Source of the DNA: a virus
Lineage: Duplodnaviria > Heunggongvirae > Uroviricota > Caudoviricetes
Direction: 5' to 3' (one strand)
Length of the DNA: 9,885 nt
IMG/VR virus record: IMGVR_UViG_2534681835_000035
Part shown: positions 1 through 9,546 of the stretch, one piece after another
Layout of the letters: every line of letters begins with the position of its first letter
Numbering within the stretch: the stretch's first letter is position 1
The notes under the pieces: model-generated
The model's input: the letters and a program-made list of their open reading frames with translations, nothing else
Databases searched by the model: none
What the model was told of the DNA's origin: nothing
Translations under genes and position numbers: made by a program

Positions 1-348
1 GCCTGCGGCAACGGCTTTCCGGCTGATGGTCGTACGGACCTTTTTACCCCGGAGAACACCGGCAAGTCCCATAACCGCCATGAGACGTGCCACTGTACAT
101 CTGGCCACCCTGATTCCTTCCCGTAACAACTGACGCCAGACTTTACGCACACCGTACACCTGATGATTTTCATCGTATACGCGCTGTATCTCTCTCTTCA
201 GCCAGTCGTCGTGCTGCGCACGGGCACTGCGTTTATCCGGATGATGTCGCTGTTGCTGACAATGGTAATACGTTGACGGGGCAATATGCAGTTCGCTGCA
301 TACCGGTCCGACCCCGTACTGCTCACGCAGCTTATCCAGCAGTGGCAT
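1..348 (-). CDS. IS3-family transposase OrfB (DDE catalytic subunit), N-terminal part only; 3' end outside window
   Basis: The ATG at 348..346 overlaps the orfA stop (ATGA). Translation [16 protein letters not shown]... continues to position 1 as ...GVLRGKKVRTTISRKAVAAG with no stop, in the -1 frame relative to orfA as expected for IS3-family OrfAB frameshifting. Confidence 0.85.
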   Translation of the reverse strand, partial: MPLLDKLREQYGVGPVCSELHIAPSTYYHCQQQRHHPDKRSARAQHDDWLKREIQRVYDENHQVYGVRKVWRQLLREGIRVARCTVARLMAVMGLAGVLRGKKVRTTISRKAVAAG

Positions 349-674
349 CATTTTTTCCAGAGGCGGTCGAACTCCGCCTTCGCAAAATAAGCGGAAGCCT
401 GGCGAAGGATATCGTTACTGCGGCGCAGTTCACGATTTTCACGTTCCAGCTCTTTCAGACGCTGACGTTCAGCGCTGGTGAGCCCACCATCACCGCCCCC
501 GGTATCCCGCTCATGCTGGCGAACCCAGACACGCAGAGTCTCCGGCGTACAGCCAATCTTTGGGGCAATGGAACAAATTGCCGCCCACTGTGAGTCATAT
601 TCATCCTGACTTTCCAGAACCATACGAATCGCCCGCTGACGGACTTCGGGGGAAAAACGAGTATTTTTAGTCAT
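348..674 (-). CDS. IS3-family transposase OrfA (HTH and leucine-zipper subunit)
   Basis: 108-aa [60 protein letters not shown]...[36 protein letters not shown], recognised as IS629/IS1203-type OrfA. An A-rich slippery run (CTG GAA AAA ATG A) sits at its 3' end, overlapping the orfB ATG. Confidence 0.9.
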
Positions 675-1523: not shown

Positions 1524-2627
1524 TTACCCGAGCACGCCGGTTGCAAAGGCGTGATCAAGAAAACGAAAAATTAAATCAACCTGGGAACCATGCTTTTCTT
1601 CGAACGCCAGCGGATCCGCATGAAGCTCGTTGTGATGCTCCCGACACAGCGGTAGCGTGAAAATATCGTGGGATTTTGTTCCCATTCCGCCCTGACCATG
1701 ACCAATCAGATGATGAGGATCGTCCGCTGGCTTACCACAACACGCACACGGCTGTGTCTTTACCCAGCGTGTGTATTTCTCATTTACCCAGCGGCGACGT
1801 TTAGGTCGTTTCATGAAGGATTCCGGAGACTCCGGATCAACGGCAATGCTGACCACCGTCTTTTCCTGTGGTGGGTTCTGTTGCTGGTGGGTGTGAGGCG
1901 GTAGCGCAATATTTTTTGTGCGCTGCTTCAGTATGCTGGTGGCGGTCTGTTCTCCCGGTATGATGTCGCTTTCACGGTATACGGAGCGGATTTTTTCCGC
2001 CGGTAATCCCAGAGAGCGACGCGATACTGCCTCAGGTAATGCGTCCACCACCTGATTGCAGACTGCCCACCAGGATAATTCAGCCAGCGATAATTCCCGC
2101 TCCTGCGTGCCATTCATTACATGGCGTATGACGTCAATCATCCAGGCTGTCAGATTTTGTTGAGTAAGTTGCTCAAGTGATTCGGAGGTCTGGTCGCGCA
2201 GCTGGTTGTCGCAGTGCCAGCACAACACCATTGCGCCAGCACCGTAACTGTGAATAACGGTTTCGCTGTGATGATAATCGCCGTGTGGCCACTGGCAGGA
2301 TTTCACGTGACGTAATAACCAGTCAGACAGTGCACCAGCGCCGCCAGCTGCACGAATCACCCGCTCATCGCTGAAAAATGGCAGCAGTGATTTATCTTCC
2401 GCCAGCGGCTGGCGAACAGCAGGAACCGCTCCAGATGGCAGCGCCCGCATGTTTTTCGGTTCCGGCTCCACCAGCACCCTGCCGCGATGAAAAACTGGCA
2501 ATGATTCACGACCGGGCTTAAGGACCACCAGCCCGAGTTCCGGAACCAGAACAGGTCGAAGTAATACCCGCACATTACCTCCAGACGCGCTGACGGTAGC
2601 AGGCATGTGTCCGTGGCAGATGTGCAC
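1524..2627 (-). CDS. YdfU-like (DUF968-like) prophage protein with a C-terminal Cys/His-rich, HNH-like putative metal-binding motif; start codon uncertain
   Basis: 367-codon ORF from GTG 2627 (alternative ATG at 2606). C-terminal segment KTQPCACCGKPADDPHHLIGHGQGGMGTKSHDIFTLPLCREHHNELH has paired Cys and His residues. The gene sits 12 nt upstream of rusA, the same neighbourhood ydfU has next to Q in the Qin prophage. The DUF968 assignment is from memory. Confidence 0.65.
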   Translation of the reverse strand: MHICHGHMPATVSASGGNVRVLLRPVLVPELGLVVLKPGRESLPVFHRGRVLVEPEPKNMRALPSGAVPAVRQPLAEDKSLLPFFSDERVIRAAGGAGALSDWLLRHVKSCQWPHGDYHHSETVIHSYGAGAMVLCWHCDNQLRDQTSESLEQLTQQNLTAWMIDVIRHVMNGTQERELSLAELSWWAVCNQVVDALPEAVSRRSLGLPAEKIRSVYRESDIIPGEQTATSILKQRTKNIALPPHTHQQQNPPQEKTVVSIAVDPESPESFMKRPKRRRWVNEKYTRWVKTQPCACCGKPADDPHHLIGHGQGGMGTKSHDIFTLPLCREHHNELHADPLAFEEKHGSQVDLIFRFLDHAFATGVLG

Positions 2628-3432: not shown

Positions 3433-3588
3433 TTACTTCTCAGATTCGTAGTCTACGAAGACAGCGACCTCCGTCTGACCGGTTCGGATTCGCACCTCGC
3501 AGAGGTCTTTCCTCGTTACCAGTGCCGTCACTATGACGGTTAAACAGATGACGATCAGGGCGATTAACATCGCCTTTTGCTGCTTCAT
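3433..3588 (-). CDS. hokD: Hok/Gef-family type I toxin (HokD/RelF-like small membrane peptide)
   Basis: 51 aa, MKQQKAMLIALIVICLTVIVTALVTRKDLCEVRIRTGQTEVAVFVDYESEK, near-identical to my recollection of RelF/HokD and carrying the Hok signature (LT/VTRK.LCE..IR.G..EVA.F..YES). AAGGAG Shine-Dalgarno 9 nt upstream of ATG 3588. The ORF track extends the same frame to an upstream ATG at 3645. Confidence 0.85.
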   Translation of the reverse strand: MKQQKAMLIALIVICLTVIVTALVTRKDLCEVRIRTGQTEVAVFVDYESEK

Positions 3589-3878
3589 AGCCTGCTTCTC
3601 CTTGCCTTTCGGCACGTAAGAGGCTAACCTACATGTGTTCAGCATGGATTGAGCCTCAGATTAATGTTAAGCGTCTTGCAGGACGCGTAATGTTAACTGG
3701 GGCTTTTCTCTATCTGCCGTTGGTGTTCATGCCCGAGGCAGATAGCCTCAAGCACCCGCTGCAATTCTACTTAACTATCCTTTTCCCGCAAACCGTTTTT
3801 ATCCCCAGCGGCAAATCGAATACTCCACCAGCGCCACCGCCATCGCAATTCCTACCGTTGTGAATGCTTCAGGCCAGG
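3589..3878 (-). promoter_or_regulatory. Long hok leader: candidate promoter, upstream in-frame mok-like start, and likely site of an antisense Sok-like RNA on the plus strand
   Basis: 290 bp separate the upstream gene from hok. Candidate minus-strand promoter TTGCGG-N16-TAGAAT (plus 3791..3764). Stable inverted repeats in the leader (TATCTGCC 3711..3718 with GGCAGATA 3737..3744; GCGTC 3671..3675 with GACGC 3682..3686) and an imperfect hairpin just 3' of hok (3404..3425). By analogy with hok/sok loci, an antisense RNA would be transcribed rightward from about 3600..3700, but its ends are not determined. Confidence 0.35.
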
Positions 3879-4436
3879 TCATTGATTCACCTCCTGCGGC
3901 GGTTCTGGTAGCGACATCCAGTGGGTTGCTTGCCTAAGATCATTACCCGGACTAACTGCTATACCTCCGCGCCGGAACGTGCCTCCGAGATAGCGTGCGG
4001 AATATATTAATGGCCCAGCCTCGCTATCGATATTCATCGAAATAAGCACGTTCTGGCTCTTTTCAGGCATTCGCTCAGTACAGCTTATCCAGCCATCCAG
4101 AGTTATCGGAGATCTGGTTGACGTTTCCGAGATTTCCCGAAAATTGTTGGTTGACGAATTCTTATTTTCCCGAAAGTTTCCGGCCTGAAGCATGGCGACG
4201 CGGCAGGCGTTCCAGCCATCAGCATATGTTTTAGTTACACCGTCGAGATGGCAGGTAAGCAAATCCATTTCATCAGGCACTACCATTGCTATCGGCTCTG
4301 CTTCCAGTGATGCCAGCGCGATACGAAACACATTAGCCAGCAGGCTGTCTGAAGACTTGTTATCGTGCGCCGAGTCGCTCAGGAAGCCTGTGATGTATGA
4401 TTTAATCTCCGCGCGTTCTCTGGTAATAGTGCTCAT
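3879..4436 (-). CDS. DUF551-domain prophage protein
   Basis: 185 aa; C-terminal GWISCTERMPEKSQNVLI...YSARYLGG...THWMSLPEPP matches the DUF551 signature as I recall it (W...ERLPE ... THWMPLPEPP). AAGGA Shine-Dalgarno 9 nt upstream; start is 1 nt from the preceding gene's stop. Confidence 0.8.
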   Translation of the reverse strand: MSTITRERAEIKSYITGFLSDSAHDNKSSDSLLANVFRIALASLEAEPIAMVVPDEMDLLTCHLDGVTKTYADGWNACRVAMLQAGNFRENKNSSTNNFREISETSTRSPITLDGWISCTERMPEKSQNVLISMNIDSEAGPLIYSARYLGGTFRRGGIAVSPGNDLRQATHWMSLPEPPQEVNQ

Positions 4437-4437
4437 A

Positions 4438-4656
4438 TCAGTTTTCCTTATACGGATTAATTTTATTGTGCAGTGCGCTGAATGATTCCCATGTCACATC
4501 GGTATATAGCTCAATAACTGGTTCAAATGTCCTTCCAATTATCCAGACCAGTAATAGCGGGGATATCGGTATCATCAACACTATAAACAGAATGAAAAAC
4601 AGAAACTCTGTTGTTCTGCTCTTTCGTGGGTAATTTTTTTCTAAATAATGTTTCAT
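4438..4656 (-). CDS. Small hypothetical membrane protein (one predicted transmembrane helix) in an AT-rich patch
   Basis: 72 aa with hydrophobic core FLFFILFIVLMIPISPLLLVWIIG. Tightly coupled to the DUF551 gene. The ATG is preceded by AGGAGG, then a CCGCCC-GAAA-GGGCGG hairpin, then 6 nt. Confidence 0.55.
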   Translation of the reverse strand: MKHYLEKNYPRKSRTTEFLFFILFIVLMIPISPLLLVWIIGRTFEPVIELYTDVTWESFSALHNKINPYKEN

Positions 4657-4662
4657 TTCTTA

Positions 4663-4684
4663 CCGCCCTTTCGGGCGGCCTCCT
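4663..4684 (-). other. Shine-Dalgarno, stable hairpin, start codon arrangement in the 5' UTR of the small membrane-protein gene
   Basis: Minus strand: AGGAGG (4684..4679), perfect 6-bp stem with GAAA loop (4678..4663), UAAGAA, AUG (4656). The unfolded SD-to-AUG spacing is about 22 nt and becomes about 6 nt if the hairpin forms. Confidence 0.35.
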
Positions 4685-4783
4685 GATGTTCTGAGGGTGC
4701 AGGAATCCCTCCGGTTAAGGATTTAATAAAAATCGTTTCTGATTTAAATCTTCAGTATTTAGTTGTTAGTTGGTTTATCGCCT

Positions 4784-5095
4784 TTATGCTTCAGCCTTAT
4801 TTCGCAACCAGACACAAACCGGGCCATCTTCCGTATCATGAATGGAACCAATAAACCAGCCATCGCCCTCTGGTCGTTCCGGTTCCCATGCAGAAATATC
4901 AGCATCACACGCATCAAGGTCAGCACATCCTTCATCTCTGAAGCAGAGGACGTATTGAAGATTATTTTCCTCCATCCAGGCGTTAAACTCTTCCGTTGAA
5001 ATATATTCCCGACCATCACAGAATTTTTCATATTCAGGATGTGTCCAGTAGCCATATCCGTCACGAACTACCGGCATTTCTTTAATTTTACTCAC
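4784..5095 (-). CDS. Hypothetical small, strongly acidic protein
   Basis: 103 aa with about 24 Asp/Glu against 9 Lys/Arg by my count (DEGCADLDACDADISAWEPERPEGDGW...). GTG start at 5095 with AGGAGG 6 nt upstream, overlapping the previous gene's stop (GTGAGTAA). Confidence 0.6.
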   Translation of the reverse strand: MSKIKEMPVVRDGYGYWTHPEYEKFCDGREYISTEEFNAWMEENNLQYVLCFRDEGCADLDACDADISAWEPERPEGDGWFIGSIHDTEDGPVCVWLRNKAEA

Positions 5096-8259: not shown

Positions 8260-8685
8260 TCAATGTACTGCCACAGCATTTCCTGCCGGGCCACCACGGT
8301 TCATCTGATTGAAACCGGCGATTGCCACTGCGACAAAATCATCAGCGTCTCTCACCAGTCGCTCCCGCGTCTCCACCAGCTCCCGAAAATAAGCTGAACT
8401 GTGGCTGCGCATTCTGGCCACCAGCAAAGGTGGCATTGCCTTTTCGATCGCTGGTAACAACGCCTGAATTTTTTCAACTGCATCAGGGGTGTCTTTCTCT
8501 ACCCAGCGGAAAATTTTCTGGGTATTGCGAGCCAGGGCTTCCGGATGGCTGTCGTCATACAGTTCAGGAAACGTCATACCCAACTCAAAATAAGCCTGGG
8601 TTATTCCAGCTGCTGGAACTTTTTCGCCATCAGGACGCGCCCAGGCATTCATCGCCATGCGGATGTGTTCATGCTTGATTTTCAT
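8260..8685 (-). CDS. YdaT-like prophage protein (occupies the cII position downstream of cro)
   Basis: 141 aa beginning MKIKHEHI and ending ...VH, matching my recollection of Rac YdaT-family proteins. AGGAG Shine-Dalgarno 8 nt upstream; overlaps the Cro-like gene by 17 nt. Confidence 0.6.
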   Translation of the reverse strand: MKIKHEHIRMAMNAWARPDGEKVPAAGITQAYFELGMTFPELYDDSHPEALARNTQKIFRWVEKDTPDAVEKIQALLPAIEKAMPPLLVARMRSHSSAYFRELVETRERLVRDADDFVAVAIAGFNQMNRGGPAGNAVAVH

Positions 8686-8950
8686 GAATCAAGCTCCTAG
8701 TAAGTGGTTGTGTTAACGTTTTGGTATCTTCCAGCTCGGGCCAAATATTCATCCAATCAAAAGGCCTTAGTTGCTGACGTGTAACTTCACCATTACTGGC
8801 TCGCTCAATAAGGACACATAACGATGCCCCTAACATTTGACCTTTACTCAATGCCTTTCTTAGATAACCGATGCTAGTACCACACTCACATGCAAACATA
8901 CGCTGTTCATCTGACGAAAGAGAATTGAGAAATATTCTTAATTCTTCCAT
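8669..8950 (-). CDS. Cro/YdaS-like HTH regulator
   Basis: 93 aa with a Cro-like motif (GTSIGYLRKALSKGQMLGASLCVLIERASNGEVTRQQLRPFDW). AAGGAG Shine-Dalgarno 6 nt upstream. Divergent from the repressor gene. Confidence 0.7.
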   Translation of the reverse strand: MEELRIFLNSLSSDEQRMFACECGTSIGYLRKALSKGQMLGASLCVLIERASNGEVTRQQLRPFDWMNIWPELEDTKTLTQPLTRSLIHENQA

Positions 8951-9049: not shown

Positions 9050-9467
9050 ATGGACAAATATGAATTTAGACGACAACAACTCATCAAAATTCGTGATGAG
9101 AAATGCGATGGTAAAGCGGTTAACGTGGCCAGAAAGATCGGTCGCGAGCCTTCTTATGTATCAAGAATGTTGTACCCAGAGGGGAAAAAGGAAAAAACGG
9201 ATCGCTGATGATATGGTGGAGATTATAGAAGAGTCCTTTGGGTTACCCCGGGGATGGATGGATGGTATCGTTTCATCATCAACGAACACAGCCTCCAATT
9301 ATGAAACAAGGGTTCTAACGCCACGACAACGTATTTTTTTAGATCTCTTAGACGAACTGCCAGAAAGTGAAGCGGATAACTTATTAAAAACTCTTGAAGA
9401 GAAAAAACAGTATTACAATATGATCTACGAAGAAATCCGTAAAAAGAAAGCACAAAACGCATCATAA
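9050..9467 (+). CDS. CI/RacR-like prophage repressor, reading frame interrupted by an apparent +1 frameshift in the G4A5G2A6 tract at 9181..9197
   Basis: Frame A (ATG 9050) encodes an N-terminal HTH (KAVNVARKIGREPSYVSRMLYPEGKK) and stops at 9206..9208. Frame B continues from about 9198 with protein-like sequence RIADDMVEIIEESFGLPRGWMDG...LLKTLEEKKQYYNMIYEEIRKKKAQNAS to 9467. Removing one A from the A6 run would fuse them into a protein of about 138 aa. Confidence 0.6.
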
Positions 9468-9509: not shown

Positions 9510-9546
9510 TACCCATGGGTATTTACTTTTTAAATACCCATGGGTA
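9510..9546. promoter_or_regulatory. Two perfect 12-bp palindromes TACCCATGGGTA, 25 bp centre to centre: OL-like operators flanking a putative rightward promoter
   Basis: Palindromes at 9510..9521 and 9535..9546 share the TACC-N4-GGTA architecture with the OR-like sites. Between and over them: -35-like TTTACT (9522..9527), 17-nt spacer, -10-like TATCCT (9545..9550). Confidence 0.55.

What the first reader, a model, noticed from the sequence alone, without database searches (positions are those of the whole stretch)
4438..4783. AT-rich moron-like patch encoding a small membrane protein with a Shine-Dalgarno, hairpin, start-codon arrangement
The composition drops visibly here relative to the flanks, suggesting separately acquired DNA. 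The gene has AGGAGG separated from its AUG by a perfect 6-bp GNRA-loop hairpin. Folding would bring the SD to about 6 nt from the AUG, as in the hairpin-dependent spacing described for phage T4 gene 38. Small prophage membrane proteins are often superinfection-exclusion or toxin-like factors.
Basis: partly seen in the sequence, partly recalled or inferred. Interest (0 to 1): 0.4.

Follow-up and report, generated by a model that had tools for sequence, protein, structure and literature searches.

The report
Hairpin-bridged ribosome-binding cassette in coliphage prophages
A small prophage membrane-protein gene sits behind a strong ribosome-binding site held 22 bases from its start codon by a very stable hairpin, and the same site-plus-hairpin unit precedes many unrelated genes in about 44 % of complete E. 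coli genomes, so it is probably a portable T4-gene-38-style translation start signal rather than a separately acquired "moron".

Summary
On the − strand, AGGAGG (4684-4679) abuts a perfect 6-bp GAAA-loop hairpin (4678-4663). TAAGAA and the ATG (4656) of a 72-aa full-length DUF4014 protein follow. Linear SD-AUG spacing is 22 nt and folded spacing is 6 nt, matching T4 gene 38 (22 to 5). GC is 0.38 against 0.50 for the window.

The unit is not specific to this gene. SD+hairpin precedes at least six different gene families, in three upstream contexts, with the start codon always 6-11 nt after the stem. Fifteen of 16 spacer types have no SD of their own. The leader occurs in 2,393 of 5,426 complete E. 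coli genomes and, among 185,579 species, only in Escherichia/Shigella.

Where the cassette is absent (933W), DUF4014 has AAGGAG 6 nt before its start. Stem substitutions are strand-asymmetric: 5'-arm C>U (G·U-tolerated) in 40 of 125 copies, mirror 3'-arm G>A in 2. One compensated pair exists. Formal covariation is not significant.

The best reading is a split, hairpin-bridged SD on a portable intergenic cassette at mosaic junctions. "Moron" is not supported: no promoter or terminator was found, the gene lies in the delayed-early operon, and GC3 is unexceptional. The protein's function remains unknown. Nothing has been tested experimentally.

The parts
4438..4656 (-). DUF4014 (PF13198) gene, 72 aa. 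Predicted single-pass membrane protein with a basic N-terminus, a hydrophobic helix at about residues 17-41 kinked at P30, and a helical acidic C-terminal tail.
   Evidence: Pfam full-length match, E 1e-24. PHROG 1832. Family alignment. AF2 mean pLDDT 80, helices 14-28 and 31-66.
4654..4656 (-). ATG start codon of DUF4014.
   Evidence: First start codon of the ORF. The Pfam and PHROG profiles align from residue 1.
4657..4662 (-). 6-nt A-rich spacer TAAGAA between the hairpin base and the ATG. It contains no SD motif.
   Evidence: Spacers in other copies are 6-11 nt.
4663..4678 (-). Hairpin CCGCCC-GAAA-GGGCGG: perfect 6 bp with a GNRA tetraloop.
   Evidence: exact coordinates. dG about -12.6 kcal/mol and P(paired)=1.0. 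Strand-asymmetric substitution pattern and one compensated pair.
4679..4684 (-). Shine-Dalgarno AGGAGG directly abutting the 5' base of the hairpin, 22 nt from the AUG.
   Evidence: anti-SD duplex -10.3 kcal/mol. The GGAG core is invariant in 125 copies.
4685..4727 (-). Conserved upstream leader (TTAAATCCTTAACCGGAGGGATTCCTGCACCCTCAGAACATC), shared with other phages in front of other genes. Predicted helices are 4711-4707/4697-4693 and 4721-4718/4684-4681; the second would mask the SD. Function unknown.
   Evidence: conservation. (predicted structure, no significant covariation). The leader is dispensable in context 2.
4728..4783 (-). Variable AT-rich intergenic spacer after the stop codon (4786-4784) of the upstream gene.
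   Evidence: No promoter or terminator consensus. No Rfam match.
4784..5095 (-). Upstream gene, 103 aa, PHROG 1372, unknown function. The same gene precedes the leader in mEp460.
3879..4436 (-). Downstream DUF551-domain gene. Its SD (AAGGA, 4449-4445) lies inside the conserved last codons of DUF4014, and its start codon is 1 nt after the DUF4014 stop (4440-4438).

Best explanation
The AGGAGG plus GNRA hairpin is a split (hairpin-bridged) translation-initiation region of the kind shown experimentally for T4 genes 38 and 25.

Proposed mechanism: on the polycistronic delayed-early transcript the 16-nt hairpin forms essentially always. The 30S subunit binds AGGAGG. Because the hairpin loops out, the AUG lies an effective 6 nt downstream, which is the optimal spacing, instead of a non-functional 22 nt.

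The unit is not private to this gene. It is a portable intergenic cassette, either a minimal 'TC-AGGAGG-hairpin' unit or that unit with a 40-nt conserved leader. It sits at mosaic junctions of accessory-gene regions in both early operons of Escherichia/Shigella lambdoid prophages and supplies the ribosome-binding site for whichever gene has been recombined behind it.

The gene served here encodes DUF4014, a 72-aa single-pass inner-membrane protein (probably N-in, C-out) made with the delayed-early genes. Its function is unknown.

Shown: the sequence anatomy, the thermodynamic stability, the distribution, the spacing rule and the substitution asymmetry. Inferred: that the upstream AGGAGG is the SD actually used, and that the hairpin is required for that use.
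For: 1. Geometry is the same as T4 gene 38. T4 reads AAGGAG-[AGGGGC UUCG GCCCUU]-CUAAAU-AUG; this element reads AGGAGG-[CCGCCC GAAA GGGCGG]-UAAGAA-AUG. Both have 22 nt linear spacing. The review PMC3014915 states 22 to 5 nt for gene 38 and 27 to 11 nt for gene 25, and that destabilising mutations reduce initiation.

2. In 125 IMG/VR copies found through the upstream leader and 82 found through the core, SD+hairpin precedes DUF4014, DUF7167, DUF551-type proteins, two unclassified families, a 43-aa ORF and an antiterminator-Q homologue. Three different upstream contexts occur. The ATG is always 6-11 nt after the stem.

3. Fifteen of 16 spacer types contain no SD core. Most other genes of this window have a core at -9 to -14.

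4. 933W DUF4014 lacks the cassette and has AAGGAG exactly 6 nt before its start.

5. The substitution pattern fits sense-strand RNA pairing. 5'-arm C>U changes (U·G retained) occur in 40 cells of 125 copies, against 2 for the mirror 3'-arm G>A. IMG/VR-wide scans for 3'-arm G>A at two pairs gave 0 hits.

6. The single lineage with a C·A closing pair is the one whose downstream gene has its own GGAG in the spacer.

7. G59>A is accompanied by C70>U in 7 contigs (CCACCC/GGGTGG).

8. The hairpin has dG about -12.6 kcal/mol and P(paired)=1.0. The SD/anti-SD duplex is -10.3 kcal/mol.
Against: - There is no experimental evidence for this element.
- Formal covariation is not significant: one compensatory cell, matched by about 40 % of shuffles.
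- The element is confined to Escherichia/Shigella, so comparative power is low. Near-invariance could simply reflect recent spread by recombination.
- C>U excess on the non-template strand could partly be a transcription-associated mutation bias.
- In the long-leader context the predicted ensemble partly masks the SD (P unpaired 0.03-0.65) through upstream UCCU/UUCCUG tracts. The cassette might therefore repress rather than promote initiation.
- The 3' arm (GGCGGU) could act as a weak SD if the stem is melted: duplex -7.8 kcal/mol.
Confidence: 0.58

Rival explanations
1. Recombination linker or mRNA-stability hairpin only. The conserved SD-hairpin is a 'boundary sequence' kept because it is the short homology at which accessory genes are exchanged, perhaps also a 3'-exonuclease barrier or processing signal. 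It plays no positive role in initiation. The downstream genes are translated through A-rich, SD-independent initiation or through the weak GGCGGU in the 3' arm.
For: Both flanks differ between phages while the element is 90-100 % identical. It is restricted to one genus. Covariation is not significant. The spacers and first codons are A-rich. [quoted passage not shown]
Against: This does not explain why the start codon is always 6-11 nt from the stem, why 15 of 16 spacer types lack any SD of their own when most neighbouring genes have one, why a perfect AGGAGG always abuts the stem, or why the substitution asymmetry is RNA-specific. The linker role is compatible with, and is included in, the best explanation.
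Confidence: 0.22
2. Regulated or repressive leader. In the long-leader version, upstream pyrimidine tracts (UCCU at 4721-4718 or UUCCUG at 4705-4700) pair with the SD. The cassette would then be a translational attenuator or switch, possibly opened by upstream translation, temperature or a GGA-binding protein such as CsrA. The hairpin would serve as a structural anchor.
For: The MFE, ensemble and RNAalifold consensus all pair AGGA with UCCU. Changes in the partner tracts are wobble-compatible. The 43-nt leader is conserved although it is non-coding.
Against: The helices are only 4-6 bp with large loops. Their 5' halves were fixed by my search pattern, so they could not vary. There is no significant covariation. 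The minimal cassette works as a unit without the leader in front of the same genes. CsrA involvement is pure speculation and was not tested.
Confidence: 0.12
3. Transcription-level element: an N-utilisation boxB-like hairpin, a terminator or an attenuator.
For: A GC stem with a GNRA loop superficially resembles lambda boxB (own knowledge). The element lies in both early operons.
Against: There is no U-tract on either strand and no terminator call. No boxA-like motif lies on the − strand in the leader. Up to 4 copies per genome lie deep inside operons, immediately before start codons. There is no Rfam match.
Confidence: 0.04
4. Moron encoding a lysogen-expressed exclusion or toxin factor, which is the first reader's functional reading of the gene.
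For: Low GC. Small membrane protein. Presence/absence polymorphism between related phages.
Against: No promoter or terminator. The gene is embedded in, and translationally packed into, the delayed-early operon. GC3 is unexceptional. There is no PADLOC hit. In 933W and ArgO145 it sits inside the pL operon.
Confidence: 0.08

Closest known systems
T4 gene 38 split ribosome-binding site (Nivinskas et al. 1999, as reviewed in PMC3014915)
   Same: A strong SD directly 5' of a GC-rich 6-8 bp stem capped by a stable tetraloop, then a 5-6 nt A/U spacer beginning UAA/CUAAAU, then AUG. Linear spacing is 22 nt in both, and folded spacing is 5 against 6 nt.
   Different: The loop is UUCG in T4 and GAAA here. 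T4 is a lytic phage and the site serves a late structural gene, whereas this is a temperate prophage and an early accessory gene. The T4 site belongs to one orthologous locus, whereas this unit is shared by non-homologous genes. The T4 case is experimentally proven and this one is not.
T4 gene 25 'accommodated' split TIR (Malys & Nivinskas 2009, as reviewed in PMC3014915)
   Same: An intervening hairpin shortens SD-AUG spacing (27 to 11 nt). The arrangement is conserved only among close relatives, which suggests a recent origin. The narrow Escherichia/Shigella range here is similar.
   Different: The T4 site lies at the gene 26-25 intercistronic junction. It is not a mobile cassette.
Lambdoid 'boundary sequences' at module junctions (Clark et al. 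2001, HK620; cited in PMC3029335)
   Same: A short conserved intergenic sequence flanked on both sides by non-homologous genes in the early regions of lambdoid phages. This fits exchange by homologous recombination.
   Different: I could not read that paper, so I do not know whether this sequence is one of theirs. As far as I recall, the boundary-sequence concept carries no translational mechanism.
SD-sequestering hairpins and RNA thermometers
   Same: Local structure around the SD. The predicted upstream UCCU:AGGA pairing would be of this type.
   Different: The dominant hairpin here lies between the SD and the AUG. It leaves both outside the stem, apart from a possible G·U pair involving the last G of the SD.

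Membership tests
Split (hairpin-bridged) SD translation-initiation region, T4 gene 38/25 type | Strong SD complementary to the 16S 3' end | tested here: met
   AGGAGG; duplex with ACCUCCUUA is -10.3 kcal/mol. The GGAG core is invariant in 125 copies.
Split (hairpin-bridged) SD translation-initiation region, T4 gene 38/25 type | Linear SD-AUG distance beyond the functional range (above about 13 nt) | tested here: met
   22 nt, the same as T4 gene 38.
Split (hairpin-bridged) SD translation-initiation region, T4 gene 38/25 type | Stable hairpin lying wholly between the SD and the AUG, giving a folded spacing of 5-11 nt | tested here: met
   6-bp GAAA hairpin, -12.6 kcal/mol, P(paired) 1.0. Folded spacing is 6 nt here and 6-11 nt in all copies.
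Split (hairpin-bridged) SD translation-initiation region, T4 gene 38/25 type | No alternative SD at canonical distance | tested here: inconclusive
   The spacer has none. The 3' arm GGCGGU could pair weakly (-7.8 kcal/mol) if the stem were melted.
Split (hairpin-bridged) SD translation-initiation region, T4 gene 38/25 type | Arrangement conserved among relatives, with pairing maintained | tested here: inconclusive
   The arrangement is conserved across gene contexts. There is an RNA-strand-specific substitution asymmetry and one compensated pair. The covariation statistics are not significant.
Split (hairpin-bridged) SD translation-initiation region, T4 gene 38/25 type | Stem-disrupting mutations lower initiation and compensatory mutations restore it | not testable with these tools
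   This needs reporter fusions or toeprinting.
Moron (Juhala/Hendrix sense: extra gene with its own promoter and terminator, expressed from the prophage) | Own promoter upstream | tested here: not met
   No sigma-70 consensus site in 4657-4783 on the − strand. This was a consensus scan only.
Moron (Juhala/Hendrix sense: extra gene with its own promoter and terminator, expressed from the prophage) | Own intrinsic terminator downstream | tested here: not met
   No terminator call. The stop codon is 1 nt from the next gene's ATG.
Moron (Juhala/Hendrix sense: extra gene with its own promoter and terminator, expressed from the prophage) | Inserted between genes that are adjacent in related phages, with deviant composition | tested here: inconclusive
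   In mEp460 the same upstream gene and leader are followed directly by a DUF551-like-N-terminus gene, but a different allele. GC is low, but GC3 is not exceptional.
DUF4014 (Pfam PF13198) / PHROG 1832 | Full-length profile match above the curated threshold | tested here: met
   87.2 bits against a cutoff of 23.2, residues 1-72 of 72. PHROG 1832, E 1e-44.
Lambdoid boundary (linker) sequence | Short conserved intergenic sequence whose two flanks are non-homologous between phages | tested here: met
   Three upstream contexts and at least six downstream gene families.
Lambdoid boundary (linker) sequence | Identity with the boundary sequences published for HK620 and relatives | not testable with these tools
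   The paper is not held. HK620 is not among the 19 phage records that carry the leader.
Lambda-type nut site (boxA + boxB) | boxA-like motif a few nt upstream of the hairpin on the transcribed strand | tested here: not met
   No match to YGCTCTTWA (up to 1 mismatch) on the − strand in 4685-4783.
Known anti-phage defence / superinfection-exclusion proteins | Match to a defence-system protein model | tested here: not met
   No PADLOC hit at E<=0.01.

The most novel reading that the evidence does not exclude
The unit is a mobile, self-contained translation-initiation cassette: a perfect SD, a GNRA hairpin that sets the spacing, and optionally a 40-nt structured leader that can mask the SD. It also serves as the homologous-recombination linker by which E. 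coli lambdoid prophages swap accessory genes. Any ORF recombined behind it would be expressed at once without needing its own ribosome-binding site. That would make it a natural 'plug-and-play' expression socket, present in nearly half of E. coli genomes and so far unannotated.
Probability: 0.3. Interest if true: 0.65.

Novelty: new member of a known kind. Interest (0 to 1): 0.45.

Why it matters
Split Shine-Dalgarno sites are textbook curiosities. In the literature I could search they are known only from two T4 genes. If this element works the same way, three things follow:
- The mechanism would be common in temperate coliphages: about 3,500 copies in 5,426 complete E. coli genomes.
- Gene-callers and RBS models that allow at most about 15 nt spacing would systematically misjudge these starts.
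- A translation signal could itself be the shuffling junction of phage mosaicism, which would explain how promoter-less, SD-less accessory ORFs are functional as soon as they are acquired.

It also offers a compact natural part (22 nt plus spacer) for synthetic biology. If it does not work this way, it is simply a conserved junction hairpin, and the finding is ordinary lambdoid mosaicism.

Tried and rejected
- **Rfam.** At gathering thresholds on the whole window, and at E<=10 on 4400-4850, nothing credible covers the leader. Only ALIL and sok were found elsewhere in the window.
- **Promoter and terminator scan.** No sites flank the gene, so I rejected the classical moron reading.
- **Covariation tests.** I tested three alternative leader structures on 34 distinct sequences, with no significant signal. 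The 5' halves of the upstream helices were fixed by my search pattern, so those tests had little power.
- **Genome-contig scan with free inner stem pairs.** This was meant to find divergent, covarying relatives in other genera. It returned only canonical Escherichia/Shigella copies plus 35 unpaired chance matches.
- **Coding potential of the leader.** The frame ending at the TAA after the stem is closed by an upstream TAA and has no start codon. A 1-nt indel variant also exists (read by eye). I rejected a coding role.
- **boxB/nut reading.** No boxA motif was found.
- **Literature.** DUF4014, 'acetyltransferase inhibitor' and 'released from the phage upon host infection' gave no papers. Those database labels therefore remain unverified. 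The HK620 paper is not held.
- **Fold search of the AF2 model.** Not attempted, because a kinked single helix would give meaningless matches.
- **Deep HMMER search.** Only 23 clusters were found, with no informative distant relatives.
Full report
**1. What is in the sequence**

The feature lies on the − strand. ORF 4438-4656 encodes 72 aa. Reading upstream on the − strand, the order is:
- a conserved leader, ...TTAAATCCTTAACCGGAGGGATTCCTGCACCCTCAGAACATC
- AGGAGG (4684-4679)
- CCGCCC (4678-4673), GAAA (4672-4669), GGGCGG (4668-4663)
- TAAGAA (4662-4657)
- ATG (4656-4654)

The stem is a perfect 6 bp, with a possible seventh G·U pair that uses the last G of the SD. It has a GNRA loop, dG about -12.6 kcal/mol, and pairing probability 1.0 in a 115-nt context. 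SD-to-AUG spacing is 22 nt linear and 6 nt with the hairpin looped out.

**2. Composition**

GC of 4438-4783 is 0.382. The window mean is 0.503, and the sd of equal-length windows is 0.050. Only 0.8 % of windows are as low, the others lying in the immunity region near 8743 and 9184-9223.

The CDS (GC 0.356) is low mostly at codon positions 1 and 2 (0.37 and 0.30). That reflects a protein rich in K, N, I, F, L and Y. GC3 is 0.40, higher than in three other genes of the window (0.31-0.37). The drop is real, but it is weak evidence for foreign origin.

**3. Chance**

A loose version of the motif (4-nt SD core, 0-3 nt, perfect stem of 6 bp or more, loop 3-8, ATG within 3-11 nt) occurs in 13 % of dinucleotide shuffles. 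The window has a second, obviously spurious, hit on the non-coding + strand near 1817. The single-sequence pattern is therefore not decisive by itself.

**4. Genomic context**

The window is 100 % identical to a lambdoid prophage of STEC strains such as O157:H7 PV15-279. All genes from the cro-like ORF (8950) leftwards are on the − strand. In order they are: cro-like, cII-like, replication O-like and DnaC-like genes, several hypothetical genes, a 103-aa gene (4784-5095), DUF4014, DUF551, hok/sok, a BOF/YgiW protein, DUF968, RusA and DUF1133.

The gene is therefore inside the early-right (nin-like) operon. No sigma-70-like promoter or intrinsic terminator flanks it. Its stop codon (4440-4438) is 1 nt from the DUF551 start, and its last codons (TAT AAG GAA AAC TGA) contain that gene's SD. 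This is not the anatomy of a moron.

**5. The protein**

It is a full-length DUF4014/PF13198 member (E 1e-24) and belongs to PHROG 1832. The family is tiny and narrow:
- The word-indexed search found 122 clusters, all Escherichia, Shigella or Salmonella and all at least about 65 % identical.
- An exhaustive profile search of 1.84 billion representatives found only 23 clusters.

The alignment shows a basic N-terminus, an invariant hydrophobic core (F24, V26, L27, P30, L34, W38, G41) and a conserved acidic/aromatic tail ending NKINPYKE. AF2 (pLDDT 80) gives helix 14-28, a kink at P30, and helix 31-66. By the positive-inside rule (inference) this fits a single-pass N-in/C-out membrane protein.

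Source labels such as 'sugar/O-polysaccharide acetyltransferase inhibitor' and 'released from the phage upon host infection' have no support in the literature I could search. There is no PADLOC or NCBIfam hit. Function is unknown.

**6. The key finding: the SD-hairpin is a shared cassette**

BLAST against phages showed records matching only the leader and hairpin, without DUF4014. In mEp460, a Rac-like phage and vB_EcoS-640R1, the same ~70 nt precede different ORFs.

With the annotated loci already held, these gave 125 copies. In every copy AGGAGG (or AGGAGA, CGGAGG or AGGAGT, with GGAG invariant) abuts the hairpin. The next ATG that opens a real ORF lies 6-11 nt after the stem. The ORFs are:
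- DUF7167 (60 aa)
- DUF4014
- DUF551-type proteins
- two unclassified families
- a 43-aa ORF
- a Phage_antitermQ homologue

A second scan for the core with a non-A base before TC found 82 more copies in a different upstream context. There, the stop codon of a 70-aa gene is followed by TGTC and then AGGAGG-hairpin, with no 40-nt leader, and the same downstream genes follow. A third context appears in L129. ArgO145 carries both versions 1 kb apart in its pL operon.

Spacer types are TAAGAA, TAATGA, TAATAA, TGATGA, TAGTTAA, TAGTGAA, TAAGACA, TAATGAA, AACAGATA, TAATGAAA, TAATGAAAA, TAGTGAAAA, TAATAAATA, TAACAAATA, CAATGAAACG and TGGAGATAATA. Only the last one, before the Q homologue, contains an SD core. 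In contrast, most well-defined genes of this window have a core 9-14 nt before the start.

**7. Abundance and range**

The 82-nt leader matches 3,485 places in 2,393 of 5,426 complete E. coli genomes, up to 4 per genome, usually under no annotated feature. It matches only 19 of 50,697 phage records.

A scan of one genome per species (185,579 species), with the four inner stem pairs left free, returned 39 hits. The four with a fully paired stem are E. coli, two Shigella flexneri genomes, and a 3-kb contig binned as Collinsella that carries the coliphage leader. The other 35 have 2-5 of 6 pairs and unrelated flanks, as expected by chance. The element is therefore young and genus-restricted.

**8. 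Is the hairpin selected as RNA?**

Formal covariation on 34 distinct leaders is not significant: one compensatory cell, and about 40 % of shuffles do as well. The RNAalifold covariation term is -0.22.

The substitution pattern, however, is strand-asymmetric:
- In the 125 copies, 5'-arm C>U changes (which keep a U·G pair) occur in 40 cells (positions 4, 5 and 6). The mirror 3'-arm G>A changes (C·A in RNA, but the same mutation at the DNA level) occur in 2 cells.
- Dedicated IMG/VR scans for 3'-arm G>A gave 0 hits at two pairs. At the closing pair they gave one lineage of 4 contigs, and that lineage is the one whose downstream gene has its own GGAG in the spacer.
- G>A is common at unpaired positions of the same leader (alignment columns 44 and 56).
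- Where the 3'-arm C70 is U, 7 of the 10 copies that belong to this family have the compensating A59 (CCACCC/GGGTGG). Two have G·U and one has G·G.

This is moderate evidence, not conclusive, for selection on pairing in the sense transcript. Shared descent and transcription-associated C>U bias are caveats.

**9. Comparison with T4 gene 38**

I read the T4 TIR directly: GCAUAAGGAG-AGGGGC-UUCG-GCCCUU-CUAAAU-AUG. It has a predicted 8-bp stem whose base overlaps the SD.

The review PMC3014915 states that in gene 38 a 22-nt spacing is reduced to 5 nt by the structure, and in gene 25 from 27 to 11 nt. It also states that destabilising mutations reduce initiation, and that the gene 25 arrangement is confined to close T-even relatives.

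The present element has the same order of parts, the same 22-nt linear distance and a 6-nt folded distance. Its stem is capped by a stable tetraloop of the other class (GNRA rather than UNCG).

**10. Control from the same gene family**

In 933W, DUF4014 (ST933Wp07) lies in the pL operon with no hairpin. AAGGAG ends 6 nt before its GTG start and overlaps the upstream stop codon. The family therefore normally uses a strong SD at 6 nt, which is exactly what the folded cassette would provide.

**11. Mechanism proposed, and what is inferred**

Shown: the anatomy, the stability, the spacing rule across unrelated genes, the lack of own SDs, the distribution and the asymmetry.

Inferred: that 30S subunits use the upstream AGGAGG with the hairpin looped out, and that the cassette also serves as the homology at which accessory genes are exchanged. 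The latter is the boundary-sequence idea of Clark et al. 2001, cited in PMC3029335. I could not read the original.

An unresolved complication concerns the 43-nt upstream leader. It is predicted to pair UCCU (4721-4718) or UUCCUG (4705-4700) with the SD, giving P(unpaired) 0.03-0.65. This may add regulation, or it may be irrelevant. The minimal cassette lacks the leader.

**12. Rivals**

- **Linker or stability hairpin without a translational role (0.22).** This explains the conservation but not the spacing rule or the missing SDs.
- **Repressive or regulated leader (0.12).** This is not exclusive of the best explanation.
- **nut or terminator-type element (0.04).** There is no U-tract, no boxA and no Rfam hit.
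- **Moron or exclusion factor (0.08).** See sections 4 and 5.

**13. Verdict**

The gene-38-like interpretation is supported by comparative evidence but is unproven. The moron and exclusion interpretations are not supported.

As a kind, this is a new, and apparently very common, member of the split-SD class. The added feature is that it is portable between genes. I found no description of it in the searchable literature, but that library is incomplete. Interest is moderate (0.45): a specialist would find a widespread lambdoid split RBS noteworthy and easily testable, but the mechanism itself is known.

Noticed in passing
window 4633-4656 (−), codons 2-8 of DUF4014: The N-terminus here (MKHYLEKNYPRK) differs from the family majority (MTTLFRKEYPRK). 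At the DNA level this looks like a compensated frameshift: ATGA-AACATTATTTAGAAAAAAATTAC against ATGACTACATTATTCAGAAAAGAA-TAT. The cytoplasmic N-terminal residues therefore seem tolerant of change. Seen by eye.
   Followed up: partly
window 4438-4450 (−): The invariant C-terminal codons of DUF4014 (…TAT AAG GAA AAC TGA) carry the SD (AAGGA, 4449-4445) of the downstream DUF551 gene, whose ATG is 1 nt after the stop. Part of the C-terminal conservation may therefore be a nucleotide-level constraint.
   Followed up: partly
L255 and L260 (IMG/VR metagenomic contigs 3300047564_000381 and 3300047510_001568): An unrelated phage has TAA-CATT-AGGAGG-CCCCCC-GAAA-GGGGGG-CTAATTCCCC-ATG between two large, apparently structural genes. 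The architecture is the same, with a G-C to C-G swapped pair and a 10-nt folded spacing. This hints that hairpin-bridged SDs may be more widespread in phages.
   Followed up: partly
L265-L268 (IMG/VR): The only lineage found with a disruptive 3'-arm change at the loop-closing pair (CCGCCC GAAA AGGCGG) is the one where the downstream antiterminator-Q homologue has its own GGAG in the spacer (TGGAGATAATA-ATG). Its leader is also diverged.
   Followed up: partly
window 9510-9546: A perfect 16-bp inverted repeat (TACCCATGGGTATTTA / TAAATACCCATGGGTA, 5-nt gap) lies just downstream of the cI-like ORF in the AT-rich immunity region. It could be an operator-like or terminator-like element.
   Followed up: no
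window 277-393 (−) and 348-674 (−): An ALIL pseudoknot (Rfam RF01497, 121 bits) lies inside an IS3-family transposase orfA fragment at the left end of the window. An IS element has been inserted into, or truncates, the prophage. In PV15-279 an IS1203 lies on the other side of the same region.
   Followed up: no
window 3433-3757 (−): A complete hok/sok type I toxin-antitoxin locus (Pfam HOK_GEF; Rfam sok, 113 bits) lies two genes downstream of DUF4014.
   Followed up: no
window 8669-8685: The cro-like and cII-like ORFs overlap by 17 nt. That leaves no intergenic space where lambda has nutR, so this prophage may not use a lambda-type N/nut system at that position. This is an inference only.
   Followed up: no
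PP818812.1 (Actinobacillus phage vB_Apl-pPE4) and L242 (Collinsella sp. MAG contig JAIHTM010000290.1): Both carry E. coli lambdoid sequence 84-96 % identical to this region, including the leader. That is unexpected for the stated hosts. It suggests contamination or mis-binning, or for pPE4 a host assignment worth checking.
   Followed up: no
window ~1817-1850 (+): A second 'SD core, 6-bp stem, ATG' match lies on the + strand, antisense to the DUF968 gene. I judge it a chance occurrence. It serves as an internal illustration of the false-positive rate of the bare motif.
   Followed up: yes
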